From assembly GCA_000830315.1 (NCBI GenBank), contig CP010426.1, forward strand, positions 60,670 to 124,669: a stretch of 64,000 bases of DNA, read 5' to 3'. Below the pieces are notes generated by a model, which worked only from the letters and a program-made list of their open reading frames with translations, ran no database searches and had not been told where the DNA came from. This document shows, piece by piece, positions 1,905 to 63,238 of the stretch. This DNA comes from an archaeon GW2011_AR20 (GTDB lineage: Archaea > Nanobdellota > Nanobdellia > SCGC-AAA011-G17 > GW2011-AR20). The first letter of the stretch is position 1. Each line of letters starts with the position of its first letter. A program made the position numbers and the translations under genes.

Positions 1905-3388
1905 TTTGCTTCATAAACATAAACCTTCTTATTATAAACCTCTTTTAAAAAACCACAATTGATCTTATCATAATCATAAACTAAATTAATGTCATTTTTT
2001 TCTAATATTTCTTTCTTGGTTTCACAGTTGGAGTTATAAAACTTATTAACTAATTCTTCATTCCCGCCCCGTAGATTAGATAAAGGCATTGCTACAACAT
2101 AATTCTGGCTTATTGGGTAAACGCCGAAAGCTGTTAATAAATTAGTCATCATTAAATTGTTTTCACCATAATTTTCCCTTACCCATTTCAATGCAAGGTA
2201 ATCATCTTCATTAATAAAATGTAGCGGTAAAAAGCGTTTATCGTCTATTTTATAATAATTATTAAATTGATTTATAAAAATTAATGCAAAAATTAAAATT
2301 ATAATAAATAAAGCTAAACTTTTATCATATTTTTTAATAAAATCGTAAACATTTTCTAGCAGATAATACAGACCAATTCCGGATAATGGCGCTAGGCCGA
2401 TTAATAAATAAAAAAACGCCCTTTGGTAAGGCAAAAACAAAGTAAAATTCAAAATAGAATACATAATTACCAAAACCAGGCAGATTAATGGCCATATCAA
2501 TAGTATTCTATTCAACCTTTTCCTGTAAACATAAATTATTCCGATTACAGCAAATAAAAATGCGATTAAGCCATACATCATAAATATTGAATAATTAAAT
2601 TCAAATGCCCCGGTCCATCCATACCTAAATATAAAAATATTAAATAAATGTTTTAAATTATTCCTGAATAAGAATAAGGCAATAAATATTGGGGCCAATA
2701 AGAGCAGGAAATAAGTACGATTTATTTTTTTTTCTAAAAAAAGATAGATAAATAAGATTAAGGTTATTAATATGGTTGATAGGGGATAAACAAAAATTGA
2801 GGTTATATAAAATAACATGCTTAGGTAATTCAATCTTTTATTTTTATGCAAAAAGCAATAAAAAAACAGATACATTAAAAATATGGAAAAAGTTAATGGA
2901 ACCAAGAACCATATTCCCATCAAATTAACGTTATTCTTGATGCTCAAGAAAAACAAGCTTGACAGGAAAGAAATGTAAAAATTATTGGTTAATAATAAAA
3001 TCAGCAAAATCAATCCAAGAAGATAAATAATGGTAAATATTGCAGGCAAATATTGGTAATTTAAAATTGGGTCTGTGTTTGTTAGGGTAAAAAATTGTGC
3101 TAGAAAACTATGAAATCCAGATTCTAGATTAAGCTTTGGCCTCGAATCCTTAATATAAGGATTTAATTCGGGAATTTTTTGGTTTTTCATTAAATAAACA
3201 GTTTGGGCCAAGTGTGTCCATTCATCCCCGTGCAGAGGATATTGATAGTAATTGTTTTCTTTTTGGACAATAAAATCCGGTTCATGCGGGTCTTGGTAAT
3301 AATAACCATAATCTAGATGAACTTTATAAACTAAAAAAAATACGAATGGTATTAAGATAATTAAGAGTAATTTATGATAATTTTTCAT
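1901..3388 (-). CDS. Polytopic membrane protein, possible GT-C-type glycosyltransferase
   Basis: 495 aa, many TM helices, acidic HGDEW motif in first extracytoplasmic loop, translationally coupled to the flippase-like gene. Confidence 0.3.
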   Translation of the reverse strand: MKNYHKLLLIILIPFVFFLVYKVHLDYGYYYQDPHEPDFIVQKENNYYQYPLHGDEWTHLAQTVYLMKNQKIPELNPYIKDSRPKLNLESGFHSFLAQFFTLTNTDPILNYQYLPAIFTIIYLLGLILLILLLTNNFYISFLSSLFFLSIKNNVNLMGIWFLVPLTFSIFLMYLFFYCFLHKNKRLNYLSMLFYITSIFVYPLSTILITLILFIYLFLEKKINRTYFLLLLAPIFIALFLFRNNLKHLFNIFIFRYGWTGAFEFNYSIFMMYGLIAFLFAVIGIIYVYRKRLNRILLIWPLICLVLVIMYSILNFTLFLPYQRAFFYLLIGLAPLSGIGLYYLLENVYDFIKKYDKSLALFIIILIFALIFINQFNNYYKIDDKRFLPLHFINEDDYLALKWVRENYGENNLMMTNLLTAFGVYPISQNYVVAMPLSNLRGGNEELVNKFYNSNCETKKEILEKNDINLVYDYDKINCGFLKEVYNKKVYVYEAK

Positions 3389-3475: not shown

Positions 3476-5833
3476 ATGAAAAAATGGCTTTTAATATTTA
3501 TTGTTATGCTAGTTTCTCTTTATAATGTGGGTGCTGCGTTGCCAGATGTAAGTTTAAGTGCGAGTGCTTACGGAGACTACGTTGTCCTAAGATGGTCATA
3601 TGAAATAATAGAGCAAAGCCCTTATGGAAGTTATGGTGTTGAGCAAGGTTATTATGAAGAAGGTGGCGCTTCAACAGCCCAAAGACCGACTATAAATTAT
3701 TTCATTGCGAATCCAACATCTATATCAAACCCAAACCAATCCGTTTATCTTTCATGGTCTGTTGATCAAGCTGATTCGTGTACAGGCTCCGGTCCCGGAT
3801 TCACAGGTTCAAAAGCAGTAGGAGATGAAGTACAAAGCGTTACTCCAACCTCAACAACAAATTATACTTTAACATGTACGAATTCGGCTGGAAGTATTTC
3901 TAGGTCCATTAATATTATTGTTTCTTATGGGAGTTATGGCGGAAGTTATGGCACAACCCAAGCAATAAGAAAAATAACAAGCAATGCAGTTTTAGATAAT
4001 ATAAAAGATCTTTTCTCAAGATTAATAGATGCTATAAAAAATCTGCTTGGACTGCAGACCGCTGGTTCTGCAATAAACTACGATTTCGAGATTTATAGAA
4101 ACTCTCAATTAATCGCATCAGGTGATAAATATGAGTTCAATTGTGAAAGCAATCAATGTAGTTATAGGGATAATCGCTTAAGAAACGAAAACTACAATTA
4201 TTATGTTAAAATTAAAAACGTTGAAGGGACCGAATCAAGAAATTCTAATTCAATTAATGTAATAATAAATTTCGATAGTGGGGGCGAGACAGCTCCGAGT
4301 CCAGGTATCCCCCCTCCAAGAATAACGATAGCGAGTGTTGATGAGGATAACGATGAACCTTATGAAACAACAAACTTTATGCCGAGAATTAGTTTAAATA
4401 CAGATGAGTCTGCTAATTGTAAAATTTCTCTCGCTGACATTTCATATACAAACATGGTTCATTCATGCCCAAACAATGAGCTGAAAACAAGCCATATTTG
4501 CAATTCTCCTGAAAACTTAAGTTTGGGAGAGAAGATTCTTTATGTAGCATGCCAAGACGAATCTGGAAATTCAAACAATGAAACAAATAACAAAGAAGTT
4601 AGATTTACAATCATCAATAGAACTTCAGTAGCATCAACGAGTTTAGAGAATATAGAAGTTTATCCAAGTGCGTTTTTGATGGAAATTGGCTCTTCAAGAT
4701 TATTAAAGTTCAATGACCCGCAAGTTACTTCAGCTTATGGGACTAATGAAAGTTTAAATTATGTGTGGTCAAAAGAAGGGGTAAGCTGTAATGTATTAAA
4801 TGGAATGGTTTCTGCATTGAAAGAAGGGAATTGTAAAGTCATAATAAATAACCGCGATAGGAGTGCAAATGGGATATCTCATGTAAAAGTTATAAACAGA
4901 TCCATTTACAGTCAAATGATAGTGTTCTCCTACGATAAAAATGAATTAACCTTTAATGATAACACAACCATTCAGCTGAACTTATCAAAAAATATCAGCG
5001 GCGGGATAATAATTAAATTTTATAATACAAGTCCTGTCGGAACACCAAATAATCTAAAACTCTTGAACAAATACTTGCTGATAGAGGCAGATGATTTGAT
5101 AACAAATAACCTTAATAATGTGGTCCTATCAATGACCTATAATAAAGTCTTCTTAAACAACAATAACATAAACGAGGATTTATTAAAAACTTATTATTAT
5201 AGTGACCTAAATGATGAGTGGATAGGATATTCTAGTTCTATAGACAAGAATTCAATGCGGGTTTCTATAGGATTAAATCACTTGTCATTATTCGGCTTGT
5301 TTGGGCAAACCGAATCATCATCACAGGGAGGGGAAGGAGGGAATGCGGGGGGTGCAGGAGGAGAAGGAAGATGCATAGAACAGTGGTCATGTGGATCATG
5401 GGGTCCTTGTATAAACAACCAGCAAAGAAGAACATGCGCTGATTTAAATAGCTGCAACAACAGGAACCCAAGAATAGCAAAGCCGGTGGGATACACTTCA
5501 TGTTCCCAAGGAGATGACTTTCTACAAAATCAGCCGAGTGAAGAATCTGATGTCAGGAACATCTTTGGCGAGACTCCCCAACCATCGGAAGAAAAAAATA
5601 ATTTAATTAATTATCTAATAATATCTCTACTACTGGCAGGAGCAATAGTTTTTGTATTTAGAAAGAGAATATTCAGGAAAAAAACCGGAATTGCTGATAA
5701 TAACTTAGATGCCATAATTGGGTTAGTAAAAAGAATAAGAGCAAGAGGGTATAGTGATGATGAAATTAAGCAAAAATTGTATGACGAGGGCTTTAATCAG
5801 AAGCAGGTAGAAAAAATATTCAGGAAATTATGA
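3476..5833 (+). CDS. Large secreted cell-surface protein with N-terminal signal peptide, Gly-rich linker, Cys-rich module and C-terminal TM anchor with basic tail
   Basis: 785 aa; MKKWLLIFIVMLVSLYNVGAA signal; GGEGGNAGGAGGEG linker; CIEQWSCGSWGPC...C module; C-terminal LINYLIISLLLAGAIVFVFRKR. Confidence 0.5.
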   Translation: MKKWLLIFIVMLVSLYNVGAALPDVSLSASAYGDYVVLRWSYEIIEQSPYGSYGVEQGYYEEGGASTAQRPTINYFIANPTSISNPNQSVYLSWSVDQADSCTGSGPGFTGSKAVGDEVQSVTPTSTTNYTLTCTNSAGSISRSINIIVSYGSYGGSYGTTQAIRKITSNAVLDNIKDLFSRLIDAIKNLLGLQTAGSAINYDFEIYRNSQLIASGDKYEFNCESNQCSYRDNRLRNENYNYYVKIKNVEGTESRNSNSINVIINFDSGGETAPSPGIPPPRITIASVDEDNDEPYETTNFMPRISLNTDESANCKISLADISYTNMVHSCPNNELKTSHICNSPENLSLGEKILYVACQDESGNSNNETNNKEVRFTIINRTSVASTSLENIEVYPSAFLMEIGSSRLLKFNDPQVTSAYGTNESLNYVWSKEGVSCNVLNGMVSALKEGNCKVIINNRDRSANGISHVKVINRSIYSQMIVFSYDKNELTFNDNTTIQLNLSKNISGGIIIKFYNTSPVGTPNNLKLLNKYLLIEADDLITNNLNNVVLSMTYNKVFLNNNNINEDLLKTYYYSDLNDEWIGYSSSIDKNSMRVSIGLNHLSLFGLFGQTESSSQGGEGGNAGGAGGEGRCIEQWSCGSWGPCINNQQRRTCADLNSCNNRNPRIAKPVGYTSCSQGDDFLQNQPSEESDVRNIFGETPQPSEEKNNLINYLIISLLLAGAIVFVFRKRIFRKKTGIADNNLDAIIGLVKRIRARGYSDDEIKQKLYDEGFNQKQVEKIFRKL

Positions 5834-6276
5834 AAAAAGGTTTTATCTTTTCATTGGATTCATTTTTTGCAATAATATTATTCACATTAGTTATATTTTT
5901 GATTTATGTATTCTCAATAAATTCCTTCGGATTGAACCAGCAGTATTTTTTTTCTGAAGACTTGCTTACAACGCTTTCAAATGTAAAGATAAGCGAGCTC
6001 GATTTATCAAATTATCCCGACATAAATAGTATGGTATCATCTGGAAAAATAAATTACACAGAAGCAACAATTGTAGAACAGATAGTAAATTTCCAGCTGA
6101 ATGATGATCAGGAATCTTCAAACCTTTTCATTGACGACATATTTATCAAAGTAGCTGATGAGAGTCTAAAAACAGCCATTTTCATAGGAAATGTTAAAAT
6201 TTATGGGGCAGATCCTGAAAACGTAAAGAATTTATTGTCAAGAACAAGGTTGGCGATTGGTAAAAAAAATTCTTAA
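5830..6276 (+). CDS. Small N-terminally anchored protein, possible class-III-signal (pilin-like) protein
   Basis: 148 aa; MKKG followed by hydrophobic FIFSLDSFFAIILFTLVIFLIYVF; start overlaps upstream gene stop. Confidence 0.3.
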   Translation: MKKGFIFSLDSFFAIILFTLVIFLIYVFSINSFGLNQQYFFSEDLLTTLSNVKISELDLSNYPDINSMVSSGKINYTEATIVEQIVNFQLNDDQESSNLFIDDIFIKVADESLKTAIFIGNVKIYGADPENVKNLLSRTRLAIGKKNS

Positions 6277-6281
6277 AAAAA

Positions 6282-7223
6282 TCAGCATTCAGTCCTGTCA
6301 TAATAATCAATGTGTTGAGTATCTAATTTGAAATTGCTTGGCATTCCAAATACACAAGAACCAACAACCCCATTTAAATATTGATAATCTAAACTTGAAA
6401 GCCCGGAAGGATTTGAATAATAATTTGGATCGAGAATGCTCTCAATTCCATTCGAACTTGGTGTGAAATCCCCTTCTAATCTAACTAAAAAACTCGGTGC
6501 ATTTGAGTTTGCCCTGAAATAAACTTTTTTGATGTGATCATTAAAATCATTGATGTCTGAAAAATCACCATATGGGGTTTTTCTTATTCTTACCCCGAAT
6601 TTGCCAAGTTCTGGCTCAATTAGGTAAAATGGATCGCGATAATTTTCAACATTTAGGGTAGAGTAGATATTTGCATTGTTTATTTCCCAACTAACTTCAT
6701 TTTTGATATCACTTACTCTGTACTTAAAGTTCATGCTAACCTTCAAAGTCCATGGTGTTTCATGACTAATCGTTAAAGAATTAATTGCATTATCAACATC
6801 CTCTTGCGTATATTCAAGAGTCGCACCTTGCTGTTCTGCCAAAAGTCTTATTTCATTTAAGGTATTGTTTAATGTATAATCCAAAGAACCCTGAAACATA
6901 GATTCCTGTATCCCCCCGCCATATCTACCGTTGCTTATTACCTGTTTAAGATAATCTAACGAATCCGGCGCATAAGAATTATTTGATTCATAGTCCAGCA
7001 ATGATATAATAGCCTGATTTGAGGAGGCCCCCAGTGCATCTGGAAGATATGTTGAATTCAGGTTCTTAACAAAGCTGTTCAGAGTTTCAACTTTTACATT
7101 AACAGTCTGGATTTTAGTCTGGAATCTATTATTGACATTAATCAAAAAGATAATGATTACTATAGACAAGAGAATTACGACAATAAATGTAAATACAATC
7201 CCTTTTTTGTTCACGAAATCCAT
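6282..7223 (-). CDS. Hypothetical N-terminally membrane-anchored extracellular protein
   Basis: 313 aa; MDFVNKKG + hydrophobic helix; last gene of a 3-gene minus-strand operon (8522 to 6282). Confidence 0.4.
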   Translation of the reverse strand: MDFVNKKGIVFTFIVVILLSIVIIIFLINVNNRFQTKIQTVNVKVETLNSFVKNLNSTYLPDALGASSNQAIISLLDYESNNSYAPDSLDYLKQVISNGRYGGGIQESMFQGSLDYTLNNTLNEIRLLAEQQGATLEYTQEDVDNAINSLTISHETPWTLKVSMNFKYRVSDIKNEVSWEINNANIYSTLNVENYRDPFYLIEPELGKFGVRIRKTPYGDFSDINDFNDHIKKVYFRANSNAPSFLVRLEGDFTPSSNGIESILDPNYYSNPSGLSSLDYQYLNGVVGSCVFGMPSNFKLDTQHIDYYDRTEC

Positions 7224-8185
7224 GATTTTATCTTTAAATAAACTGTATTTAATAATTCAGAATTAAAAGGATAGCATTGATCTATACACGGGGGGTTCTC
7301 ATTGTTTAGAGTTAAGGTACTTTCATCATCATTAAAATTGCCCAAAGAGTCGAATCCATATGCCTTTATTTTAAATTCCATATTATCACATTTTCTACTG
7401 TCCCAATCAAACCGAAAGTCGTATGCGCCTGTTCTCGGGGCACTTACATCTTGGCTAAACAACAGGTTACAATTTTTTGTACCCGAGCATCTAAAAGAGC
7501 AGTAATCATTGCTAGTTGGGTTATTCATATTCACGGGCTTAAATTCATCTGTTCTTGGATCTTTTTTAAATAGATATATTTCCCCCTTAGCAACTTCTTG
7601 CAAACTTTGAACGCGGGCATTTAAGGGAATTATATTATTTGTTCCTGTTGCTGTTAAAACAACTGCCGGATTAATTTGAATGCAGTTGGTTGCTTTAATA
7701 TTGCTTGATCTTAAATCCGAGGTCGTTGCTGTAAAACATTCGGTGTCTCCTCCAGTTGATGAAACAGTATAACTAAATTTCCTTAAACAAGTTGTTTCGT
7801 CTTTTGCGCAGTTTGATGTTCTTGCTTTTTGACCGCTTAAATCAGTTCCTTCCAAAAGCTGCATCTCATCTGTTTTATCTCCACTTAAGTGGGCTATAAC
7901 AGTAATCTCAACGGTTGCTCCAGGATTTGCTTTTGCAGCTGTGATAATCTCTATGCTACCACAAGATCCACAATCAGAATCGCATGGAGAGCATTTTCCG
8001 TAACTTTGCATGTCGCAAGCACCCCAGTCACCATAAGTCTGTGGACAAAACCCATCCTTTATAAAATTACAGTCAACATCGTAGTCAGCGCATATTTGAA
8101 CCCCCGTACAAATGGCAGATTCTGCAGAGCCCATATAAAACAAGCTGATAAAAATGACCAATGAGACAATTATCGGTCCTTTCAT
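7211..8185 (-). CDS. Cysteine-rich secreted protein
   Basis: 324 aa; signal peptide MKGPIIVSLVIFISLFYMGSAESA; numerous Cys; 13-nt overlap with downstream gene. Confidence 0.4.
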   Translation of the reverse strand: MKGPIIVSLVIFISLFYMGSAESAICTGVQICADYDVDCNFIKDGFCPQTYGDWGACDMQSYGKCSPCDSDCGSCGSIEIITAAKANPGATVEITVIAHLSGDKTDEMQLLEGTDLSGQKARTSNCAKDETTCLRKFSYTVSSTGGDTECFTATTSDLRSSNIKATNCIQINPAVVLTATGTNNIIPLNARVQSLQEVAKGEIYLFKKDPRTDEFKPVNMNNPTSNDYCSFRCSGTKNCNLLFSQDVSAPRTGAYDFRFDWDSRKCDNMEFKIKAYGFDSLGNFNDDESTLTLNNENPPCIDQCYPFNSELLNTVYLKIKSWIS

Positions 8186-8186
8186 T

Positions 8187-8522
8187 TTAACACAATTCCC
8201 TTAACCCTTGATTAACTATTTTATTGCAATTTTTTAAGGCTAAATTAACTTGGTCGAGGCATGATTGTTTTGTTGCATCGGATTTTATTTCATTACATCT
8301 GTCGATATTACCTTCGGCAACTGCCAAGTTTATGGTTGATGAATAACAGCCATATAGGCATGCCTCTGTTTTGCAAGTTTCGCCGCACGATTTCTGAACA
8401 GTAGTTTCCCCGCCTAAATCGGTTTTCTCTTGAACGTTAAGATTTTTTAAGTAGCTTATAACAATAAGTACAACAACTAATGCTACCAGAAATATAATTA
8501 AGTTATTATACTTTTTATTCAA
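8187..8522 (-). CDS. Small Cys-rich membrane-anchored protein
   Basis: 111 aa; N-terminal TM helix; 8 Cys; stop abuts next gene start. Confidence 0.35.
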   Translation of the reverse strand: MNKKYNNLIIFLVALVVVLIVISYLKNLNVQEKTDLGGETTVQKSCGETCKTEACLYGCYSSTINLAVAEGNIDRCNEIKSDATKQSCLDQVNLALKNCNKIVNQGLRELC

Positions 8523-8624
8523 TATATCACCTCTAAATTTTAGTAGGTTTAGTTACTATTTAAATATTATTGTTTGGTTCAAATTACGATTAATTTATAT
8601 ATTTTTAGGTTTAATTAGATATAT

Positions 8625-9485
8625 ATGAATTTGTTGCAAAAACTTGCATTATATGGATTAACGATCGGGGGTTTAAGCGGATTATTTTATAATAAAGCCG
8701 ATTCCCAGATTATTAATCATCATAAGAATAAGTTAGAGCATATTGTCAGCAATCATAATTCCTTTAATTTTAGCAATAATCTAGAAGATGGGCTGGAAGA
8801 ACAGGATGTCTTGTATCTTAAAAATGGAAGTATAATACGCGGCAAAATTATTGAGATGCTGCCGGATAAAACTGTAAAAATTAGAACTGCAGACGGAAGC
8901 TTATTTGTCTATCAAATGACCGAGGTTGAAAAAATTGTAATGGAAGAAGCTAAAAAAGAGGAAACAGCACCGGCGAAATACGCGGAAGATACAATGAAAA
9001 AAGAGGAAGTGCCAGACAAAATGTACAATACCCAAATCTCATTTGGCTATGGCAATTCATTCGGCGGTTTTGGTGCATCCTTGCAGGGAGAGCTGTCAGA
9101 AAATATTTCGGTGCACGCTGGGGGAGGATATTTTCCCCTGTCCAAGATTTACAGCAATGCAAAAGACATGTTCATGGTCGCGGGAGGAATTAAAATATAT
9201 TTCAATAAAAAATCTCCCGCAAGGTTTTTTCTTGATTCGCAATTTGGAATGCTTGGAGGCGAATACAAAGAAACAACAACTTATTCTGGAAGAACAACGA
9301 CAAGCAACAAAGAGCAACAGGCATTATACGGACCGGGTGCTTTATTGGGGGGAGAAATTTTTCTTGGCGACGGCGCTTTTGGCTTATTATTTGCAGGAGG
9401 CGCTTCTTACAATCTCGCTAAAATAACTTGGAAAGAAATCGGGGTTGTTGGAGCCCTTGATTTGGGACTGGCTGTAAGATTTTAG
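8625..9485 (+). CDS. Secreted Gly-rich beta-rich protein (bacterial-type signal peptide)
   Basis: 286 aa; MNLLQKLALYGLTIGGLSGLF signal; Gly/aromatic-rich C-terminal half; TATA-like TTTATATAT at 8594-8602. Confidence 0.4.
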   Translation: MNLLQKLALYGLTIGGLSGLFYNKADSQIINHHKNKLEHIVSNHNSFNFSNNLEDGLEEQDVLYLKNGSIIRGKIIEMLPDKTVKIRTADGSLFVYQMTEVEKIVMEEAKKEETAPAKYAEDTMKKEEVPDKMYNTQISFGYGNSFGGFGASLQGELSENISVHAGGGYFPLSKIYSNAKDMFMVAGGIKIYFNKKSPARFFLDSQFGMLGGEYKETTTYSGRTTTSNKEQQALYGPGALLGGEIFLGDGAFGLLFAGGASYNLAKITWKEIGVVGALDLGLAVRF

Positions 9486-9559: not shown

Positions 9560-10051
9560 ATGGTTCTGATGAGAAAACTAACTTTGCTTGGATTAATGAC
9601 AGCGGGTTTAAGTGGAATTCCATCTTGCTCTGAAAAAAGCACAACTACTACAGAAAACAGTAACACTGAAACAACAAAACGCGAATACAAGCATGTTGTA
9701 TTTAAAGCTTTATGCAGAGACGAAAGCGAAAACAGGGATAGGGGATTAGTTTTAACCGTCATGATTTTTGACGAAGCATCAAACAATAGAATAGAGCTAG
9801 GAGGTACGGGATCAAATGGAGGCTATTGCTCAATAAAATTGGATATAAGTGGTAGCTATCGTATAGAACTTTTTGAATATATTAATAACCAAAGAAAATG
9901 TGTTGCACAAATTAAAAACTTTAATTATAATAATTATCCCAGCTACTGGTCAGATAATTGCGATGCGGGATATTCTGGAAGCGCCCCCATACTTTACGGT
10001 TTTGAATCATGCTATAATATTTCTGCAATCAATGGTTGCTGGGGTCAGTAA
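9560..10051 (+). CDS. Putative lipoprotein
   Basis: 163 aa; signal peptide ending in lipobox-like GIPSC. Confidence 0.35.
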   Translation: MVLMRKLTLLGLMTAGLSGIPSCSEKSTTTTENSNTETTKREYKHVVFKALCRDESENRDRGLVLTVMIFDEASNNRIELGGTGSNGGYCSIKLDISGSYRIELFEYINNQRKCVAQIKNFNYNNYPSYWSDNCDAGYSGSAPILYGFESCYNISAINGCWGQ

Positions 10052-10479
10052 AAATGATATCTTTGAAGAAAATGTTTTTTTATGGAATGACCTTAGTTTC
10101 ATTAAATTTATTGTCATGCAACAAAGAATCATTAACGGAGGTTGTAGAAGAGACCGATTATTTAGCACCACTTATAGGAACATGGCAGATGCTTGAACAA
10201 AACAATCAGCACGTGCCATATGACGTTAAAAAGATTTTCAGCAGAAACAATTCATATACCTTTTCTGTTGAGGATACCATAAACCATTCTTTCCGTTCCT
10301 TTAGGGCAAGCATTTATGAAATCAATGAAAGCAAATATAAAGCGGAGATAAAAGAACAGTATGGCGAATGGCACGTTAATGCTATCGGGCGATTGGAAGA
10401 ATGGAATTATCGCATAATTGGCAACCAGCTATACGAAGATGGCAATGAAGAACTGTATAATGTTTATATTAAGAAATAA
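10036..10479 (+). CDS. Putative lipoprotein
   Basis: 147 aa; signal peptide with lipobox-like LLSC; overlaps upstream gene. Confidence 0.35.
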   Translation: MLGSVKMISLKKMFFYGMTLVSLNLLSCNKESLTEVVEETDYLAPLIGTWQMLEQNNQHVPYDVKKIFSRNNSYTFSVEDTINHSFRSFRASIYEINESKYKAEIKEQYGEWHVNAIGRLEEWNYRIIGNQLYEDGNEELYNVYIKK

Positions 10480-10654: not shown

Positions 10655-11284
10655 ATGAATCAATCTATAATAAACAAAATTGGAGAAATATCTACAATAA
10701 AGGATATAGAAAAAAAACTGAATATTAAGAGAGTTACAGCTATAAATTATGTTCACCTATTAAGAAAAAATGGCCTAATAAAAACATGGTATAAAAGAGA
10801 TAAAAGTAGGCTATATATAATAAAAAAGCTAGCAAAGCCAATAATCGGAAATGAAAGTTTTTATGATATAATTAATAAATATTCTCCAATGAAGCTTGCA
10901 TTTAGATCTAATTATAGGGTAATTGGCAGAAAAATAGGTGTGGAAGAAGCAATAATAAGAGCAATAGAAACAAAACACCCAAAGGTGATTTTGGCAAGCT
11001 TGGCCTTATTTAACCATTTAAACGACTGGCCTTTATTATTAAAGTTATCTAAAAAATACAATGTTAGGAGGAAGGTTGGAGCATTATATGAATTAACAAA
11101 AACATTTATGAGGATAAGAAGAATTGATAAAAGAACTTTAAAGGCTTTATTAAAAGCAAAGAATGAACCAAAGTTTATAGTTGATAATTTTAAGACTAAA
11201 GATTTTAAAGATATAGAAAAAAAATGGAATATTTTTTTGCCATTTAATAAAGTTGATATCTTGGAGTATGAACAATGGTGGTAA
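10655..11284 (+). CDS. wHTH protein, AbiEi-like antitoxin/regulator candidate
   Basis: 209 aa; N-terminal HTH-like segment (ISTIKDIEKKLNIKRVTAINYVHLLRKNGLIK); 10-nt overlap with downstream nucleotidyltransferase-like gene. Confidence 0.35.
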   Translation: MNQSIINKIGEISTIKDIEKKLNIKRVTAINYVHLLRKNGLIKTWYKRDKSRLYIIKKLAKPIIGNESFYDIINKYSPMKLAFRSNYRVIGRKIGVEEAIIRAIETKHPKVILASLALFNHLNDWPLLLKLSKKYNVRRKVGALYELTKTFMRIRRIDKRTLKALLKAKNEPKFIVDNFKTKDFKDIEKKWNIFLPFNKVDILEYEQWW

Positions 11285-15751: not shown

Positions 15752-16297
15752 TTGTTTAATATCATGCCTGTAAATATTTCAACTGCAGTAGACAGTTTAG
15801 TTGAGCTAGTAAATAATAAAAAAAGAATTCCCTTAGAAGAAGCTGCAAAAGAATTGGGACTGCCAGAGCATATAATAAATGAGTGGGCTGTTTTCTTGGA
15901 AGAAGAGGAAATATTAACAATTGAATATCAGTTTACAACCCCTTTCTTGATAGCTAAAGGCAAAAAAACTGTGGAAGAGTCAAGGGATTATTCACAGGAC
16001 ATTGAGATATTAACCAGGCAGATAGAAATAATGCAGTCTGGCTTAAACAAGATTGTCATTAAACATGCTATTGTCATTAAAGATGTTGATGACGTCAAAA
16101 TAGCATTGACAAAAAAATTAAGCAGGGAAGATATGATTTACACACAAAAGTTTGTCTTGGATTATGAAATTAAGCAATTGCTGCATAAAGTAAGCAGATT
16201 GAAAGTCTTCAACAAAGAAAATTACGATGAGATAAATAAAGAATTTGAAAATATTAAAAGAAGAAAGCAAATATTTGATAAAAACTTGACCAGATAA
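15752..16297 (+). CDS. Hypothetical protein upstream of pilus locus
   Basis: 181 aa ORF, no recognised motif. Confidence 0.3.
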   Translation: MFNIMPVNISTAVDSLVELVNNKKRIPLEEAAKELGLPEHIINEWAVFLEEEEILTIEYQFTTPFLIAKGKKTVEESRDYSQDIEILTRQIEIMQSGLNKIVIKHAIVIKDVDDVKIALTKKLSREDMIYTQKFVLDYEIKQLLHKVSRLKVFNKENYDEINKEFENIKRRKQIFDKNLTR

Positions 16298-17109: not shown

Positions 17110-18567
17110 ATGGTTGTAAAAGAGACATATAGCTTCTACTCTGAGAATATTCCGATAACTGTAACTATAGAGAGTACAAAGGATGAATTTGTGCTAGTCT
17201 ATAATGTAAGCATTGCAAAAATAAGCCCAAATACAGAGATTATTCTTGATAAAATAAAGCAGGAAATCTCCAGTAAGGTTAAACTTGGATTAAGTGATAT
17301 TTCGGATTTAAAAAAATCGGAATTTGTGAGGAAAAGATTTGAGGATGCAATATTATATCTGCTAAATAAATATCTTCCAACAATTTCGGATGACATTAAA
17401 AAATTTCTCACAACATATTTGATGCACAAGGCACTTGGCTTGGGGAAGATTGAATTGTTGCTTGATGATAAAAATCTTGAAGAAGTTGTTATTAATAATG
17501 CAGAAGAGCCGGTGTGGGTTTATCACCACAAGCATGGCTGGTTAAAAACAAACATAAAACTTGAGAATGAAGAGCAGGTTAAGCATTACTCGTCATTAAT
17601 TGGAAGAAGGGTCGGAAGAAGCATTTCTCTGCTTACCCCATTATTGGATGCACAATTAGAAACAGGAGACAGGGTAAATGCAACATTAAACCCCATTTCT
17701 ATAAAAGGAAACACAATTACATTCAGGAAGTTTGCAACAAAACCAATCACAATGACAGACATGATTAACCAGAAAACAATTTCCATCTCAGCTGCTTCTT
17801 TAATATGGCTGGGAATAGAATATGAGCTGAGCGCGTTAGTAACCGGGGGCACGGCGACGGGAAAAACTTCTTTCCTCGGGGCAATATGCTCTTTCTTCCA
17901 GCCAAATCAGAGGATTATCTCTGCTGAGGACACTGCTGAACTAAGACTCGCAAAATACCTGCAATGGATCCCCATGTTGACAAGACAGCCGAATGTAGAA
18001 GGAAAGGGAGAAGTTACCCTGCTCGACTTAATAGTCAATTCATTGAGGATGAGGCCGGACAGAATTGTTGTTGGTGAGATAAGAAGGCAGAGGGAAGCTG
18101 AAACCTTGTTTGAGGCAATGCATACTGGACATAGTGTTTATGCAACATTGCATGCAAATGATGTAAATGAAACAATAAACAGAATTACAAACCCGCCCCT
18201 TAATATTCCAAAAAATTTGCTTCCTGCTATTTCAATGATAATTGTAATGTACAGAAACAGAAGAACAGGAATAAGGAGAATTTACCAGATAGCTGAAATC
18301 CTGAGTAATGCAGAGCCAAATGTTTTATTGCAACTAGATTTGAGGCAGGATAAAATTTTGACTGTTAACAGATCATCAAGATTAATGCCTGAATTAGAAT
18401 TAACTACCGGATTAACGACACAGGAGATTAACCAAAATTTGAAGGAAAAATCATTGATCTTAACATGGTTAGCAAAGAAAAATATCAATGAGGTAAATGA
18501 CATCGGAAAGGTAATTGCTACTTATTACACAAACAAAAATGCCGTTTTAAACCTGCTTAAAAAATGA
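17110..18567 (+). CDS. Type II/IV secretion-family ATPase (archaeal pilus/archaellum assembly ATPase, FlaI/PilB/VirB11-like)
   Basis: 485 aa; Walker A GTATGKTS; Asp-box and His-box region ...IVVGEIRRQREAETLFEAMHTGHSVYATLHAN. Confidence 0.8.
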   Translation: MVVKETYSFYSENIPITVTIESTKDEFVLVYNVSIAKISPNTEIILDKIKQEISSKVKLGLSDISDLKKSEFVRKRFEDAILYLLNKYLPTISDDIKKFLTTYLMHKALGLGKIELLLDDKNLEEVVINNAEEPVWVYHHKHGWLKTNIKLENEEQVKHYSSLIGRRVGRSISLLTPLLDAQLETGDRVNATLNPISIKGNTITFRKFATKPITMTDMINQKTISISAASLIWLGIEYELSALVTGGTATGKTSFLGAICSFFQPNQRIISAEDTAELRLAKYLQWIPMLTRQPNVEGKGEVTLLDLIVNSLRMRPDRIVVGEIRRQREAETLFEAMHTGHSVYATLHANDVNETINRITNPPLNIPKNLLPAISMIIVMYRNRRTGIRRIYQIAEILSNAEPNVLLQLDLRQDKILTVNRSSRLMPELELTTGLTTQEINQNLKEKSLILTWLAKKNINEVNDIGKVIATYYTNKNAVLNLLKK

Positions 18568-19364
18568 TAATTCCAATTTTAGCAAAAAAATTTCCTTATT
18601 TGAAGATAGGGCTTATGCAAGCTGATATAAATCAGACTCCCGAGCAGTTTATTAAAAAAAGTCTTATTACAAGTTTAATTGTAAGCATAACATTAACGCT
18701 TGCTTCAATAATGGTTTTTTCAAGGCTGGAGGTTAGTTTATTAATCCCCTTATTATTGTTCCCGGTTATTTATATTGCCGTGTTTTTCTTTTTCATGCAT
18801 TCGCCAACTGCAAAATCAAATAAAGTCGTCCGTGAAATAGACCGTGAGATTGTTTATGCCGGAAGATTTTTATTAATTGAACTAAGCGCGGGAATTCCAC
18901 TGTTTGATTCAATAAGAAATGTCTCTTACGCCTATCCGACGATTGGAAGATACTTTAAAAAAATCGTTGATAAAGTTGAAACAGGAATGCCGATAGAGCA
19001 GGCGATAAACGAAGTTATAGAAATCACTCCAAGCGATAATTTCAGGAAAGTTTTATTTCAGATTCTCAATTCAATGAAAACCGGGGGAGATGTAAGCAAG
19101 GCCCTGGAAAGCATAACAGAGCAGATTTCCAAGGAACAATTAATTAAAATCAAAGAATATGGGAAAAAATTAAACCCCATGGTTTTGTTTTATTTGTTAA
19201 TTGCTGTTATACTTCCTAGTTTGGGGGTTACAATACTTTCTTTGATGTCAACGTTTACTGGATTAACATTATCGTTGTCAAATTTAATAGGAATTAACTT
19301 TGCCATAGGTGTATTACAGTTTTCATTTTTATCAATAATCGGAAATCTGAGGAAAGGTGTGTAA
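18564..19364 (+). CDS. Pilus platform membrane protein (T2SS-F / TadB-TadC / FlaJ-like), part 1
   Basis: 266 aa polytopic membrane protein immediately downstream of and overlapping the ATPase gene. Confidence 0.55.
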   Translation: MIIPILAKKFPYLKIGLMQADINQTPEQFIKKSLITSLIVSITLTLASIMVFSRLEVSLLIPLLLFPVIYIAVFFFFMHSPTAKSNKVVREIDREIVYAGRFLLIELSAGIPLFDSIRNVSYAYPTIGRYFKKIVDKVETGMPIEQAINEVIEITPSDNFRKVLFQILNSMKTGGDVSKALESITEQISKEQLIKIKEYGKKLNPMVLFYLLIAVILPSLGVTILSLMSTFTGLTLSLSNLIGINFAIGVLQFSFLSIIGNLRKGV

Positions 19365-20359
19365 TGGAATCAGGATTGATAATAAAAGCCAGAAAAAAGT
19401 TTGAAAATGAATTGATAAAATCCGACATTAAGATTGATGTAAATAAACTATTAATTCAGTCTTCCATAGGAACATTTGTTTTAAGCATAATAATATTATT
19501 GTTTTTCAGGACCCAGTTAAAGCTTGCTGCTAATTTTACAAGCTCGTTAATAAGCTTTTATATGCTATCTTTGCTAATTGCCTTGGCCATCGCAATATTT
19601 TTTATTTATTCCTGGATAACTTTAAAGAAAATAAAAAGAAAAAAGGAAATTGAAAATGTTCTTGCAGATTACTTGCAGTTGGTTGCTACAAACTTGAATG
19701 CGGGGATGCCTATTGACCAGGCAATGTGGTATGCTGTAAGAGAAAGATTCGGAATTTTGGCGAATGAAGTTGAGGTAATTGCAAGAAAAGTTACCAGTGG
19801 TTATGATTTGGAGCAGGCATTAATGGAATTCACAGATAAATATGATTCTGATTTGCTAAAAAAAAGTATGGTATTATTAGTTGAAGGATTGAAATCAGGC
19901 GGGGAACTGGCAGGTTTAGTGAGCAAGATATCCTGGAATATCAAAGAAACACAGGTGCTTGAAAGAGAAATAAGTGCAGAGGTAACGACCTATGTAATCT
20001 TTATAACATTAGCTGCGATTATAATAGCCCCATTTTTATATGCATTATCCCACAGGATCATTATTTTAATGAGTGAAATACTTGCAAGCATTAATGTTGA
20101 AAGCATAGCTGGTCTGGGAAACAATTTACCGTTAAGTTTTTCCGGCGGCGAAGCAATTTCTCCAAGCGATTTCAAGACATTTGTTTTTATCAATCTGGGG
20201 ATAAGCGCTGTCTTAGCGGCCATGATAATCTCAACAATCAAAAAAGGAAACATTAAGTCTGGGTTAAAATCAATTCCGATTTTTTTAGCAGTGAGCATAA
20301 TTATATTTTTAATAGCATCTATAATACTAACTGCGGTATTCAAGAACATAACAGTATAG
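19364..20359 (+). CDS. Pilus platform membrane protein (T2SS-F / TadB-TadC / FlaJ-like), part 2
   Basis: 331 aa polytopic membrane protein; start overlaps previous stop. Confidence 0.55.
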   Translation: MESGLIIKARKKFENELIKSDIKIDVNKLLIQSSIGTFVLSIIILLFFRTQLKLAANFTSSLISFYMLSLLIALAIAIFFIYSWITLKKIKRKKEIENVLADYLQLVATNLNAGMPIDQAMWYAVRERFGILANEVEVIARKVTSGYDLEQALMEFTDKYDSDLLKKSMVLLVEGLKSGGELAGLVSKISWNIKETQVLEREISAEVTTYVIFITLAAIIIAPFLYALSHRIIILMSEILASINVESIAGLGNNLPLSFSGGEAISPSDFKTFVFINLGISAVLAAMIISTIKKGNIKSGLKSIPIFLAVSIIIFLIASIILTAVFKNITV

Positions 20360-20393: not shown

Positions 20394-20843
20394 ATGAAAA
20401 GAGCTCAAACTGCTATGGAGTTTTTGATGACATATGGTTGGGCGATATTAATAATTTTAGCGGTTATTGCAATATTATTCAGCTTAGATGTATTTAATCC
20501 AAAAGTTCCAAATAATTGTGTTTCTGTTTCTCCTGTAACATGCTACGATATCAAATTAGCAGACGATGGTTTTATGCAGATTACCTTAAGCAGTTCAGAC
20601 ACAGACACGGCAACATTAACAAGCATAACATTAACCAATCCAAGCACAGCACCGGGCTCATGCATACCTTCTCCAAATACAATTCCTGTTGATGCAAAAT
20701 ATACACTAAATTGCGATTTAAGCACTGACGTTTTAACATCTGGAACAAGGTTTGAAGGAAATGCAAATATAGGTTACAGGTTATCCGGCGGCACAATTGA
20801 TCATGGAATTGTTGTTAAATTCTCCGGCACCATAGAGGATTAA
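20394..20843 (+). CDS. Archaeal type IV pilin-like protein with class III signal peptide
   Basis: 149 aa; N-terminus MKRAQTAMEFLMTYGWAILIILAVIAILF (the QTAMEFLMTYGWAIL class-III/DUF361-type motif). Confidence 0.7.
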   Translation: MKRAQTAMEFLMTYGWAILIILAVIAILFSLDVFNPKVPNNCVSVSPVTCYDIKLADDGFMQITLSSSDTDTATLTSITLTNPSTAPGSCIPSPNTIPVDAKYTLNCDLSTDVLTSGTRFEGNANIGYRLSGGTIDHGIVVKFSGTIED

Positions 20844-20916
20844 TAGGCTAAAAACAATAGATTTATATATTATTAAATAGTATTAATTTTATTAGGATAA
20901 TATAAAGAGGTGGTAA

Positions 20917-21402
20917 TTGATGCATAAAAATCATAATAAAAAAGCTCAAACTGCTATGGAGTTTTTGATGACATATGGTTGGGCGATATTAATAGTTCTA
21001 ATTGTCTTGGCTGTATTATTCTCATTTGGTGTGTTTAACCCCGGAACAGGACAGAATACTTGTAGAAGCGATGATACTGGTGTTTTATGTAGAGATGTAA
21101 AATTAGATGACAGCGATAATCAATTACAATTGCGTTTAAGAGCATCTGGCGTAAATACTGTTACATATGTCGCTGCAAGTGCGATAACATTAAATGGAGT
21201 TGCATGTGCAGTTACAAATGATGGCGATGGAAATGCTGATGGAACAATGACAAATGTAAAAACACAAGATGTTACAGTTACATGTGCTTCAACATTAGCA
21301 ACAGGAGATGCGTTCAGTGGTAAATTTGTAGTAAGCGCAACAAAAGTTGGTGGATTAGCTCACGATGTTATACTAACCATTGAAGGAACAGCAGAAGCTT
21401 AA
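20917..21402 (+). CDS. Archaeal type IV pilin-like protein with class III signal peptide
   Basis: 161 aa; KKAQTAMEFLMTYGWAILIVLIVLAVLF. Confidence 0.7.
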   Translation: MMHKNHNKKAQTAMEFLMTYGWAILIVLIVLAVLFSFGVFNPGTGQNTCRSDDTGVLCRDVKLDDSDNQLQLRLRASGVNTVTYVAASAITLNGVACAVTNDGDGNADGTMTNVKTQDVTVTCASTLATGDAFSGKFVVSATKVGGLAHDVILTIEGTAEA

Positions 21403-21457
21403 TTTTCTTTTTTCTTTATTTAATTATATTTAAATATTAGTTAATTTTTATATAATC

Positions 21458-21937
21458 ATGAGAAAAGCCCAGACAGCAATGGAATTTCTAATGACATATA
21501 GCTGGGTCGCAATAATAATGCTAATTGTATTGGCTGCTTTATTTGCTTTAGGGGTATTTAACCCTAACATAAACAAAGGAATTTGCAATTCAGAAGTTCC
21601 ATTTAGCTGTACAGATATCAAATTAGGTGAAAATACTGATTCATTGTCATTATCCCTCAGGGCATCTGGTGTAAAATATATCGGTTATAACATAAATAAT
21701 GCTGTAAAAATAAATGATGTAAATTGCCCGATAACAGATGATGGGGACCCTGCTCCAAATAATTTGGACGAGAAAATGGTTAATGCAAAAACAGCTTATG
21801 TTGAAGTTAAATGTGATGCGGGTGCTCTGAACTTAATCAAAGACGATGAATTTAGTGGGAGCATAATTTTGGATTACACTGAAATTAATGGGTTAATGCA
21901 TAATGCAGAAATAACATTTAATGGGCTTGTTGAATAA
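21458..21937 (+). CDS. Archaeal type IV pilin-like protein with class III signal peptide
   Basis: 159 aa; MRKAQTAMEFLMTYSWVAIIMLIVLAALF. Confidence 0.7.
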   Translation: MRKAQTAMEFLMTYSWVAIIMLIVLAALFALGVFNPNINKGICNSEVPFSCTDIKLGENTDSLSLSLRASGVKYIGYNINNAVKINDVNCPITDDGDPAPNNLDEKMVNAKTAYVEVKCDAGALNLIKDDEFSGSIILDYTEINGLMHNAEITFNGLVE

Positions 21938-63137: not shown

Positions 63138-63238
63138 GGGGATATGGTCTAGCTTGGAATCCTAACAAAAATTAGGGTGAGTAATTATGATGAGAGGTTT
63201 GGGACCTTTCGACCCCGGTTCAAATCCGGGTATCCCCA
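63138..63238 (+). tRNA. tRNA-Pro (anticodon TGG) with about 28-nt non-canonical intron in the D-arm
   Basis: Acceptor GGGGATA/TATCCCC + A; intact anticodon arm AGAGG-TTTGGGA-CCTTT (63193-63209); T-arm CCCGG-TTCAAAT-CCGGG; 48 nt between acceptor and anticodon stem versus about 19 expected, containing hairpin CCTAA-CAAAAA-TTAGG. Confidence 0.55.

What the first reader, a model, noticed from the sequence alone, without database searches (positions are those of the whole stretch)
3476..8522. Cluster of anchored and cysteine-rich surface proteins, including a 3-gene overlapping operon
A 785-aa secreted protein with Gly-rich linker, Cys-rich module and C-terminal anchor, a small KG-hydrophobic N-anchored protein, and a minus-strand operon (8522 to 6282) of three secreted or anchored Cys-rich proteins with overlapping start/stop codons. 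None has recognisable enzymatic motifs. Plausible cell-surface or attachment apparatus, possibly pilus-associated minor subunits.
Basis: inference. Interest (0 to 1): 0.45.

Follow-up and report, generated by a model that had tools for sequence, protein, structure and literature searches.

The report
Pilus accessory/adhesin gene module in a DPANN archaeon
These five unannotated surface-protein genes of the tiny groundwater archaeon Woesearchaeota AR20 are most likely the minor-pilin and adhesin accessory set of its type IV pilus, so they are candidates for how such symbiotic archaea attach to surfaces or hosts.

Summary
All five ORFs exist as described and none matches Pfam, NCBIfam or PDB sequences. 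Corrections: ORF C has only 2 Cys, and only the C/D junction overlaps.

The window is Woesearchaeota archaeon GW2011_AR20. It also holds a type IV filament (TFF) core at 15.7-21.9 kb: ATPase, two platform proteins and three pilins.

- **ORFs B and C** carry prepilin-type leaders (KKG|FIFSLD..., NKKG|IVFTF...).
- **ORF C's family** is large: 1166 50%-identity clusters, with no Pfam hit in the 60 members sampled. Of 155 members, 142 keep [KR][GAS]|hydrophobic.
- **TFF linkage:** 25 of 31 loci with at least 9 kb of flank carry a TFF marker. Often C sits in the same operon, just upstream of the ATPase.
- **Usual upstream gene:** a 600-1600 aa protein, commonly with a vWA domain. Its N-terminus is homologous to ORF B and its C-terminus ends in a φxφ[RK]xW motif.
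- **AR20-type lineages:** this is replaced by stand-alone B plus D, a Sec-secreted, Cys-rich protein with two Ig/CARDB-like domains that ends in the same motif. E and A are conserved companions.

I rate it a new variant of a known kind, of moderate interest.

The parts
3476..5833 (+). ORF A, 785 aa. Sec-type signal peptide, several beta-rich (Ig-like by eye) segments, a Gly-rich linker, a 6-Cys module (CIEQWSCGSWGPCINNQQRRTCADLNSC...), a C-terminal TM helix (708-733) and a 52-aa cytoplasmic tail. A type I membrane surface protein, variable between lineages.
   Evidence: Searches give the features. No Pfam hit for the whole protein or for seven pieces of it. Partial homologues sit at the same position in L005, L007, L053 and L115.
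5830..6276 (+). ORF B, 148 aa. A stand-alone pilin-like domain with a prepilin-type N-terminus, MKKG|FIFSLDSFFAIILF. It is homologous to the N-terminal domain of the large (often vWA) proteins that precede C in other lineages, and to the ~170-aa 'QxW.xD' minor-pilin-like family.
   Evidence: define the family. hhalign scores: 96.4% probability, E 1.3e-9; 88.5-93.9%. ATGA overlap with A.
6282..7223 (-). ORF C, 313 aa. Member of a large unannotated family with a prepilin-type N-terminus (NKKG|IVFTFIVV, no acidic residue at +5), a long N-terminal helix, an alpha/beta domain and a C-terminal Cys pair. Candidate large minor pilin.
   Evidence: 1166 clusters; no Pfam; N-terminal statistics; AF2 model; context.
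7211..8185 (-). ORF D, 324 aa. Sec signal peptide, a 12-Cys N-terminal region, two Ig/CARDB-like beta-sandwich domains, and a C-terminal LKIKSWIS tail of the φxφ[RK]xW type. Candidate adhesin or tip-associated protein.
8187..8522 (-). ORF E, 111 aa. N-terminal signal anchor plus a small ectodomain with 8 Cys. First gene of the E-D-C unit. A GAGGTGA Shine-Dalgarno-like site lies at 8527-8533 and a TTTAAATA box at 8557-8564 upstream of its TTG start.
   Evidence: Conserved as the first gene in type-2 loci.
6275..6281 (-). A7 run on the + strand, which reads as T7 on the - strand directly after C's stop codon. It is the only spacer between the convergent A-B and E-D-C units. An archaeal terminator-like T-run (inference).
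   Evidence: junction sequence.
15752..16297 (+). 181-aa cytoplasmic protein upstream of the ATPase. In relatives its homologue lies 40-140 nt downstream of C, or divergent from E.
   Evidence: 12 of 59 loci.
17110..18567 (+). Type IV filament assembly ATPase (T2SSE).
   Evidence: PF00437, E 9.5e-33.
18564..20359 (+). Two platform proteins (T2SSF/TadC-like), at 18564-19364 and 19364-20359.
   Evidence: PF00482, E 2.4e-17 and 3e-16.
20394..21937 (+). Three paralogous pilins with K[RK]A|QTAMEFLMTY(G/S)W N-termini and Glu at +5 (20394-20843, 20917-21402, 21458-21937).

Best explanation
The five genes are the accessory (minor-pilin and adhesin) module of the type IV filament system of Woesearchaeota AR20, whose core genes lie at 15.7-21.9 kb in the same window.

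Shown:
- B and C carry short basic leaders ending in K-G, followed by a ~20-residue hydrophobic helix. This is the hallmark of prepilin-type (class III) signal peptides.
- C's family is large, keeps that site, and is encoded inside or beside TFF loci in most long contigs.
- In most lineages the gene just upstream of C is a 600-1600 aa protein. Its N-terminus is a B-type pilin-like domain, its middle often holds a vWA domain, and its C-terminus ends in φxφ[RK]xW.
- In AR20-type lineages that gene is absent. Instead there is a stand-alone B and, at the position upstream of C, the Sec-secreted Cys-rich two-Ig-domain protein D ending in the same motif.

Inferred:
- A prepilin peptidase, not found in the window, cleaves B and C after the Gly.
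- Their N-terminal helices enter the filament made of the three QTAMEF pilins, driven by the ATPase and platform proteins.
- C is the largest subunit and lacks an acidic residue at +5, like bacterial GspK. It acts with B in a priming or tip complex.
- D is the adhesive part and is held on that complex non-covalently, possibly through its C-terminal W-strand.
- E (small, membrane-anchored, 8 Cys) and A (large, C-terminally anchored, variable) are envelope partners of unknown role.
- The likely output is attachment of this putative symbiont to surfaces or host cells.
For: - **Identity:** P0001 is 100% identical to QT11_C0001G0076 of archaeon GW2011_AR20. PMC8421398 describes it as Woesearchaeota and a putative symbiont.
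- **TFF core in the window:**
- **Prepilin-type N-termini:** B and C. B family: M1, F5, I6, F7, S8, D10 invariant. C family: 142 of 155 members have [KR][GAS]|hydrophobic; residue -1 is G 100, A 30, S 12; +3 is F in 127 and +4 is T in 126; median leader length is 7 residues.
- **Family size:** 1166 clusters at E<=1e-3 and 726 at 1e-10. None of 60 sampled members has a Pfam hit.
- **Context:**
  - L011: ATPase, two platform genes, pilins, three small pilin-like genes, a 605-aa protein, then C, all on one strand.
  - L012 and L013 are similar.
  - L014 has the AR20-type E-D-C/B module divergent from the 182-aa gene, ATPase, platform genes and pilin.
  - 25 of 31 loci with at least 9 kb of flank carry a TFF marker; 15 of 31 carry an ATPase or platform gene.
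- **B versus the N-terminus of the large protein:** hhalign 96.4%, E 1.3e-9. All complete upstream ORFs of 600 aa or more hit the B HMM.
- **vWA domain:** hits at E<=0.01 in 6 of 8 large proteins tested (4 above Pfam's gathering score), plus CARDB in one and VWA_2 in L013.
- **C-terminal motif:** 51 of 84 upstream-of-C ORFs against 10 of 751 background ORFs.
- **C model:** helix 6-76 followed by an alpha/beta domain.
- **Literature:** archaeal clade 1 / system 1 T4P have two TadC genes, at least 5 minor pilins and large adhesins (PMC4858521; bioRxiv 10.64898/2026.04.22.720090).
Against: - No prepilin peptidase (Peptidase_A24) was found among the window ORFs scanned, so processing is unproven.
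- Neither B nor C hits Pfam Class_IIIsignal, Pilin_N or any NCBIfam pilin model.
- In AR20 the module is 7.2 kb from the TFF core, on the opposite strand, and abuts glycan-synthesis genes.
- D shows no detectable homology to the large proteins beyond the ~6-residue tail. A chimera-scoring test of the strand-complementation idea gave no signal.
- 6 of 31 long loci show no TFF marker.
Confidence: 0.68

Rival explanations
1. C, and perhaps B, is part of the type IV filament machinery but not of the filament. On this view it is a bitopic membrane assembly or alignment protein, working like PilN/PilO/GspM or archaellum FlaF/FlaG: an uncleaved N-terminal TM helix, then a long helix and an alpha/beta ectodomain that links the platform to the envelope.
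For: The AF2 model has one very long helix (6-76) followed by a compact alpha/beta domain, a topology also typical of bitopic alignment proteins (own knowledge). No significant fold match to pilins was found. No peptidase gene was found in the window. TFF linkage fits this reading equally well.
Confidence: 0.15
2. The cluster is a pilus-independent envelope complex: anchored, disulfide-rich surface proteins tied to the neighbouring glycan and S-layer biogenesis genes. On this view the K-G-hydrophobic N-termini are ordinary signal anchors.
For: Directly upstream lie a Polysacc_synt flippase and a 12-TM protein, followed by glycosyltransferases. In L005 the A-like gene abuts sugar-modifying enzymes. 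6 of 31 long loci lack TFF markers. A has the Sec signal, C-terminal TM and conserved Cys layout of S-layer-like proteins.
Against: 25 of 31 long loci have TFF markers, and several place C in the same operon as the ATPase, platform and pilin genes. L014 places the same E-D-C/B module divergently against the TFF operon. B is homologous to pilin-like domains. Archaeal pilins are themselves commonly N-glycosylated (own knowledge), so a glycan-gene neighbourhood does not discriminate.
Confidence: 0.12
3. The TFF system is not an adhesive pilus. It is a short pseudopilus, working like a T2SS or a bindosome, and B and C form its tip. It would export or present D, E, A or other Cys-rich proteins encoded nearby.
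For: The operon logic matches T2SS pseudopilins: several small E5-bearing subunits, then a large subunit without E5 as the last gene (GspK analogy from own knowledge). Many secreted Cys-rich proteins lie between the module and the core. Sulfolobus bindosomes show that a TFF can present non-pilin proteins.
Against: Three paralogous major-type pilins with globular domains are present. vWA and CARDB modules fused to a pilin domain suggest adhesion. No ABC transporter or substrate-binding protein lies nearby. Archaea have no outer membrane to cross.
Confidence: 0.08

Closest known systems
Archaeal clade 1 / 'system 1' type IV pili (Epd pilus of Methanococcus maripaludis and relatives), with their minor pilins and predicted adhesins (Makarova et al. 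2016, PMC4858521; bioRxiv 10.64898/2026.04.22.720090)
   Same: One ATPase plus two TadC/platform genes. Several class III signal peptide proteins besides the major pilins. Large predicted adhesins encoded in the locus. Reported in DPANN.
   Different: The adhesins described there carry DUF2341 (PilY-like). Here the relatives carry vWA or CARDB, and AR20 carries a Sec-secreted Cys-rich two-Ig-domain protein. No Pfam model or name covers families B, C, D or E. Homology to EpdB/C/D or to any arCOG could not be tested here. AR20's module is detached from the core by 7.2 kb.
Bacterial modular pilins and pilin-fused vWA proteins (Streptococcus sanguinis PilB; TadG of Tad pili). Own knowledge; TadG is also cited in PMC4858521.
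   Same: A pilin-like N-terminal domain carries a grafted vWA adhesion module, as in the 600-1600 aa proteins upstream of C in most lineages.
   Different: There is no sequence homology to the bacterial proteins. In AR20 the pilin-like domain (B) stands alone, and the putative adhesive protein (D) is a separate Sec substrate without vWA.
GspK-GspI-GspJ pseudopilus tip and the PilVWX-PilY1 priming complexes of bacterial T2SS and T4P (own knowledge; PDB 3ci0, 2ret, 2opd)
   Different: The structural similarity is not significant and there is no sequence similarity. C is archaeal, with a different N-terminal consensus (G|xFFTxI).
Type IV pili of episymbiotic Saccharibacteria (CPR) (PMC9894109, PMC12206443)
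   Same: An ultrasmall, host-dependent lineage in which type IV pili are proposed or shown to mediate attachment to the host. This is a functional analogy for why the module could matter.
   Different: That system is bacterial and has experimental support. Nothing is known experimentally for Woesearchaeota.

Membership tests
Prepilin-type (class III signal peptide) proteins of archaeal type IV filaments | Short basic leader ending [KR]-[G/A/S], followed directly by ~20 hydrophobic residues | tested here: met
   B is MKKG|FIFSLDSFFAIILFTLVI and C is MDFVNKKG|IVFTFIVVILLSIVIIIF. The feature is conserved in 142 of 155 family C members and in all 17 aligned B members. It is not met by A and D (Sec-type) or E (signal anchor).
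Prepilin-type (class III signal peptide) proteins of archaeal type IV filaments | Match to curated models (Pfam PF04021 Class_IIIsignal, PF07790 Pilin_N; NCBIfam archaeal pilin or archaellin N-terminal models) | tested here: not met
   No hit at E<=0.1 in Pfam or E<=1 in NCBIfam for B or C. The window's own obvious pilins also fail these models, so the test is insensitive for this lineage.
Prepilin-type (class III signal peptide) proteins of archaeal type IV filaments | Cleavage by a dedicated prepilin peptidase (PibD/FlaK/EppA, Peptidase_A24) | not testable with these tools
   No A24 peptidase was found among the window ORFs scanned. The only unassigned multi-TM ORF (33784-34461) shows no GxGD-type motif by eye. 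The rest of the 829-kb genome was not available.
Prepilin-type (class III signal peptide) proteins of archaeal type IV filaments | Encoded with a TFF ATPase and platform protein | tested here: met
   Present in the same window at 17.1-20.4 kb. In the same or an adjacent operon in L011, L012 and L014. 25 of 31 long loci carry TFF markers.
Prepilin-type (class III signal peptide) proteins of archaeal type IV filaments | Pilin fold: a long N-terminal alpha-helix packed against a beta-sheet | tested here: inconclusive
Modular pilin / TadG-like vWA adhesin | Pilin-like N-terminal domain fused to a vWA (or other adhesive) module in one polypeptide | tested here: not met
   Met by relatives: L013 VWA_2, and vWA hits in 6 of 8 large proteins, one also with CARDB. 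Not met in the window: B is the pilin-like domain alone, and D has no vWA and no pilin-like N-terminus.
GspK/PilX-type tip minor (pseudo)pilin | Largest minor subunit, no acidic residue at +5, last gene of the minor-pilin set | tested here: met
   In family C, +5 is F, L, I, V or M. C is the last gene after three small pilin-like genes and the large protein in L011-L013. This is a functional resemblance only.
GspK/PilX-type tip minor (pseudo)pilin | Structural or sequence homology to GspK/PilX | tested here: inconclusive
CARDB / Ig-like extracellular adhesion domains (for D) | Beta-sandwich fold matching CARDB, PKD or fn3 | tested here: met
S-layer-like, C-terminally anchored Cys-containing proteins of archaeal T4P loci (as described for arCOG05471 in PMC4858521) | Sec signal, large ectodomain with conserved Cys, single C-terminal TM helix | tested here: met
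   ORF A has these features, matching the description. Homology to arCOG05471 was not tested because no sequences were available.

The most novel reading that the evidence does not exclude
Family C, together with the W-tailed protein encoded upstream of it, may form a pilus-tip host-recognition module shared across DPANN and not previously recognised. On this reading the large protein is a B/QxW-type pilin fold with the adhesive domains (vWA, CARDB) inserted before its last beta-strand.

In the AR20 lineage this gene would have undergone fission. The pilin fold, minus its last strand, became ORF B. A new Sec-secreted Cys-rich Ig-domain adhesin (D) kept the terminal φxφ[RK]xW strand. D would then dock onto B or C in trans by beta-strand complementation, giving an exchangeable, non-covalently attached pilus adhesin.
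Probability: 0.25. Interest if true: 0.65.

Novelty: new variant of a known kind. Interest (0 to 1): 0.45.

Why it matters
DPANN archaea are ultrasmall and mostly host-dependent. How they find and hold on to surfaces or hosts is largely unknown.

This analysis makes three contributions:
1. It gives a TFF-linked role to five 'hypothetical' genes of the first closed Woesearchaeota genome.
2. It defines a large unannotated family (ORF C type, about 700-1100 clusters at 50% identity) that travels with pilin-fused vWA proteins.
3. It points to a lineage in which the adhesive part appears to have been swapped for a separate Cys-rich Ig-domain protein.

These are concrete candidates for pilus tip and adhesin components. 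They can be tested by complex prediction, by metaproteomics of sheared filaments, or in cultivable DPANN co-cultures. The four families could also be added to annotation models for archaeal TFF systems.

Tried and rejected
- **Pfam and NCBIfam** on all five ORFs, and on seven pieces of ORF A: nothing above noise.
- **PDB sequence searches** with C and D profiles and with ORF A: nothing.
- **Word-indexed homologue searches** made families B, C and D look tiny (20, 15 and 7 proteins). The exhaustive profile search showed C is in fact large.
- **Genome-collection scan with the B profile:** only two loci, both Nanoarchaeota/Woesearchaeota MAGs.
- **The search for related loci with broad C alignments** failed for lack of a conserved stretch. 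It was replaced by a degenerate DNA pattern scan.
- **Is D the C-terminal remainder of the large vWA protein?** hhalign of D against a 605-aa large protein, and of the C-terminal 60, 120 and 200 aa, gave no similarity.
- **Does the W-tail complete a B/QxW-type fold?** Chimera scoring against the QxW HMM gave no gain over shuffled or random tails (a first attempt had a bug). Only the short motif and the positional evidence remain.
- **Prepilin peptidase in the window:** not found.
- **Small minor-pilin-like genes** of type-1 loci (137, 152 and 179 aa) and the 112-aa gene of type-2 loci: no homologues in the window.
- **D as a class III protein (MKG|P...):** rejected, because homologues have ordinary Sec leaders.

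Full report
**1. What is in the sequence**

ORF listing confirms all five reading frames at the stated coordinates. Public assemblies call the same five genes.

- **A (3476-5833, +, 785 aa):** a hydrophobic signal-like N-terminus, a GGEGGNAGGAGGEG linker, a 6-Cys module, a TM segment at 708-733 and a 52-residue tail.
- **B (5830-6276, +, 148 aa):** starts MKKG|FIFSLDSFFAIILF and has no Cys.
- **C (6282-7223, -, 313 aa):** starts MDFVNKKG|IVFTFIVV and has only 2 Cys.
- **D (7211-8185, -, 324 aa):** a Sec-type leader and 19 Cys.
- **E (8187-8522, -, 111 aa):** an N-terminal anchor and 8 Cys.

A/B overlap by ATGA and C/D overlap by 13 nt. A GTG start for C three codons downstream of the ATG would instead give a GTGA-type overlap. 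D and E are separated by 1 nt. The description is therefore right apart from "three Cys-rich proteins" and "overlapping start/stop codons".

None of the five matches Pfam or NCBIfam above noise. None matches a PDB sequence.

**2. Source and surroundings**

ORF C is 100% identical to QT11_C0001G0076 of archaeon GW2011_AR20, from Rifle aquifer samples. PMC8421398 describes this as the first closed Woesearchaeota (DPANN) genome and a proposed symbiont.

The window also carries a complete type IV filament (TFF) core:
- a 181-aa accessory gene at 15752-16297
- a T2SSE ATPase at 17110-18567
- two T2SSF platform genes at 18564-20359
- three paralogous pilins with K[RK]A|QTAMEFLMTY(G/S)W N-termini at 20394-21937

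One ATPase plus two platform genes is the layout of archaeal clade 1 / system 1 pili. These are known to have many minor pilins and large adhesins, and they are reported in DPANN (PMC4858521; bioRxiv 10.64898/2026.04.22.720090). The preprint notes that some DPANN subsystem 4A loci also have two platform genes, so the subtype is not settled.

**3. Families**

Word-indexed searches found only 15, 20 and 7 relatives for C, B and D. An exhaustive profile search with the C alignment found 1166 50%-identity cluster representatives at E<=1e-3 (726 at 1e-10). Among the 150 listed, most are ~300 aa matched end to end. None of 60 sampled members has any Pfam hit.

Of 155 near-full-length members, 142 have [KR][G/A/S] followed by 20 hydrophobic residues. 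Residue -1 is G in 100, A in 30 and S in 12. Position +3 is F in 127 and +4 is T in 126. The median leader length is 7 residues, and there is no acidic residue at +5.

The B family has an invariant M1, F5, I6, F7, S8, D10 N-terminus.

These are the sequence hallmarks of prepilin-type leaders. Restriction of residue -1 to small residues is what a peptidase site would need and a plain signal anchor would not (inference).

**4. Linkage to type IV filament loci**

Contexts of distant C members:
- **L011:** ATPase, platform, platform, 75 aa, pilin, pilin, three small pilin-like genes (137, 152 and 179 aa, with G|Q..xE or G|QxWYxD N-termini), a 605-aa protein, then C, all on one strand.
- **L012 and L013:** the same order, with 846- and 1253-aa proteins.
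- **L014 (34% identity to C):** the AR20-type E-D-C/B module lies divergent from the 182-aa gene, ATPase, platform genes and pilin.

A degenerate DNA pattern for APSFLxRL...GIES retrieved 119 metagenome loci. Local HMM analysis of 124 distinct C loci gave these results:
- 25 of 31 loci with at least 9 kb of flank have a TFF marker, and 15 of 31 have an ATPase or platform gene.
- A homologue of the 181-aa gene lies within 700 nt downstream of C in 12 of 59 loci.
- A QTAMEF-type pilin lies within 1.2 kb in 18 of 59 loci.

The common order is therefore large protein, C, 181-aa gene, ATPase, platform genes, pilins. In AR20 the module is inverted and separated from the 181-aa gene by a 7.2-kb block (8.6-15.7 kb) of other secreted proteins.

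**5. What precedes C**

In 63 of 84 loci (loose pattern; background 4.5%) or 51 of 84 (strict pattern; background 10 of 751, Fisher p ~1e-48) the ORF just upstream of C ends in φxφ[RK]xW. Examples are TEVQVRxW and VEVRVW, and the ORF usually overlaps C's start. These counts are not phylogenetically independent.

Every complete upstream ORF of 600 aa or more (26-28 cases, 605-1633 aa) hits the ORF B HMM at its N-terminus, with the motif [KR][GAS]|[VIFY]FF[ST]xDA[LI]IA. hhalign of the B family against the 605-aa protein gives 96.4% probability and E 1.3e-9 over 120 columns. Six of eight large proteins tested show vWA matches at E<=0.01, four of them above Pfam's gathering score. One of the six also has CARDB, and L013 has VWA_2. 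These are pilin-fused adhesin-like proteins.

B is also homologous to the ~170-aa "QxW.xD" pilin-like family of the same operons (88.5-93.9% probability). B's alignment stops ~14 residues before that family's terminal W-strand.

Nine further loci share the AR20 architecture (type 2): E (8 Cys), then D (19-23 Cys, Sec leader, tail K[IV][KR][ST]W), then C, convergent with a stand-alone B and usually an A-like gene.

**6. Structures**

**7. Most likely mechanism**

Shown: prepilin-type N-termini on B and C; conserved synteny with TFF genes; B's homology to pilin-like domains fused to vWA modules; D's secreted Ig-like nature.

Inferred:
- A prepilin peptidase encoded elsewhere cleaves B and C.
- Their helices enter the filament built from the QTAMEF pilins.
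- C, the largest subunit and one lacking an acidic +5 residue like GspK, acts with B as a priming or tip complex.
- D supplies the adhesive surface and is retained through its conserved tail.
- E and A are envelope partners.

I give ~0.68 to "pilus accessory/adhesin module". I give only ~0.25 to the specific fission and strand-complementation idea. hhalign finds no D versus large-protein homology, and a chimera-scoring test gave no signal.

**8. Rivals**

- C may be a bitopic assembly protein rather than a filament subunit (0.15).
- The cluster may be a pilus-independent envelope complex tied to the adjacent glycan genes (0.12).
- The system may be a pseudopilus or bindosome-like device rather than an adhesive pilus (0.08).

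None of these is excluded. All but the second keep the cluster inside the TFF system.

**9. Comparison and novelty**

The kind is known: archaeal type IV pili with minor pilins and adhesins. Modular vWA pilins and GspK-type tip subunits are bacterial analogies, recalled from my own knowledge apart from TadG, which PMC4858521 cites.

The following appear to be new:
- an unannotated, widespread family (C) coupled to W-tailed, pilin-fused vWA proteins
- the AR20-type variant, in which a stand-alone pilin domain and a separate Sec-secreted Cys-rich Ig protein replace that fusion

I found no paper describing these families. I could not test whether they are divergent members of arCOG minor-pilin families.

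Verdict: a new variant of a known kind, with interest 0.45.

Noticed in passing
window 8625-9485 (+): A 286-aa secreted protein in an archaeon. It has a sub-threshold match to a Leptospira N-terminal domain (NF047433, E 2e-7, 30.7 bits against a cutoff of 43) and a Gly/aromatic-rich C-terminal half ending ...GLAVRF, which resembles a bacterial outer-membrane beta-barrel terminus. It is conserved next to the module in L007.
   Followed up: partly
window 12006-13325 (+): A 439-aa secreted protein with a T9SS type A sorting domain match (TIGR04183, 23.7 bits against a cutoff of 23). The match is at residues 97-163, not at the C-terminus. A bacterial (Bacteroidota-type) domain is unexpected in a DPANN archaeon. 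L007 has a 163-aa protein with a weak Por_Secre_tail hit.
   Followed up: no
window 13795-15690 (-): A 631-aa secreted protein with 68 Cys (10.8%) and MopE-type 'putative metal-binding' repeats (PF11617, E 2e-6). L014 has a 348-aa protein with 31 Cys and CDxxDNDCDG-like repeats next to its module.
   Followed up: no
window 9560-10051 and 10036-10479 (+): Two small proteins with lipobox-like N-termini (...GLSGIPSC, ...LNLLSC). The reading frames overlap by 16 nt. Both are conserved in L007.
   Followed up: no
window 10655-11946 (+): A cytoplasmic gene pair (209 aa, and 223 aa with DUF6036/DUF2204 nucleotidyltransferase-like hits). It sits inside the block of secreted-protein genes that separates the module from the TFF core, and is conserved in L007. 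Possibly a toxin-antitoxin-like or mobile insertion.
   Followed up: no
window 1901-3388 (-): A 495-aa protein with ~12 hydrophobic segments and no Pfam or NCBIfam hit. Its stop overlaps the start of a Polysacc_synt flippase gene (684-1904), and glycosyltransferases lie further upstream in L001. It may be an unrecognised glycan polymerase or oligosaccharyltransferase-like enzyme.
   Followed up: no
L014 2518-5532 (-): The TFF ATPase of this relative is 1004 aa because an intein with a LAGLIDADG homing-endonuclease domain is inserted in the T2SSE domain, near the GGTASGK Walker A site.
   Followed up: no
L012 8019-8910 (+): Directly after the C homologue lie two paralogous ~140-aa proteins. Each has an N-terminal anchor, a poly-Gly linker and a C-terminal 8-Cys knot (…CTGTCTVGTCTAEGKSCYC). 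They are conceptually like ORF E but not detectably homologous to it.
   Followed up: no
L011-L013, L016, L034 etc. (alignment A6): The ~170-aa 'QxW.xD' pilin-like family gives weak Pfam DUF7287 hits (2 of 11 members, best E 0.001). A neighbouring 152-aa pilin-like protein hits DUF7266 (E 5.6e-5). This hints at a link to uncharacterised Pfam DUF families.
   Followed up: partly
window 44632-44717 and 63175-63238 (+): Rfam finds tRNAs here (61 bits, and 29.1 bits at threshold) that ARAGORN did not report. They may be intron-containing or atypical archaeal tRNAs.
   Followed up: no
window 53552-56440 (-): A 962-aa ORF with no Pfam hit and no hydrophobic segment. It is the largest unannotated cytoplasmic protein in the window.
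   Followed up: no
window 5677-5833 (ORF A residues 734-785) and homologues in L005, L007, L053, L115: The cytoplasmic tail of the A-type proteins keeps the motif G[YF]SxxEIxxxLxxxG[FW]xxxx[IV]xxI[FM]. It gave only weak hits to small three-helix domains (DUF7626, E 0.0016; RecX_HTH1, E 0.026). It may be a docking site for a cytoplasmic partner.
   Followed up: partly
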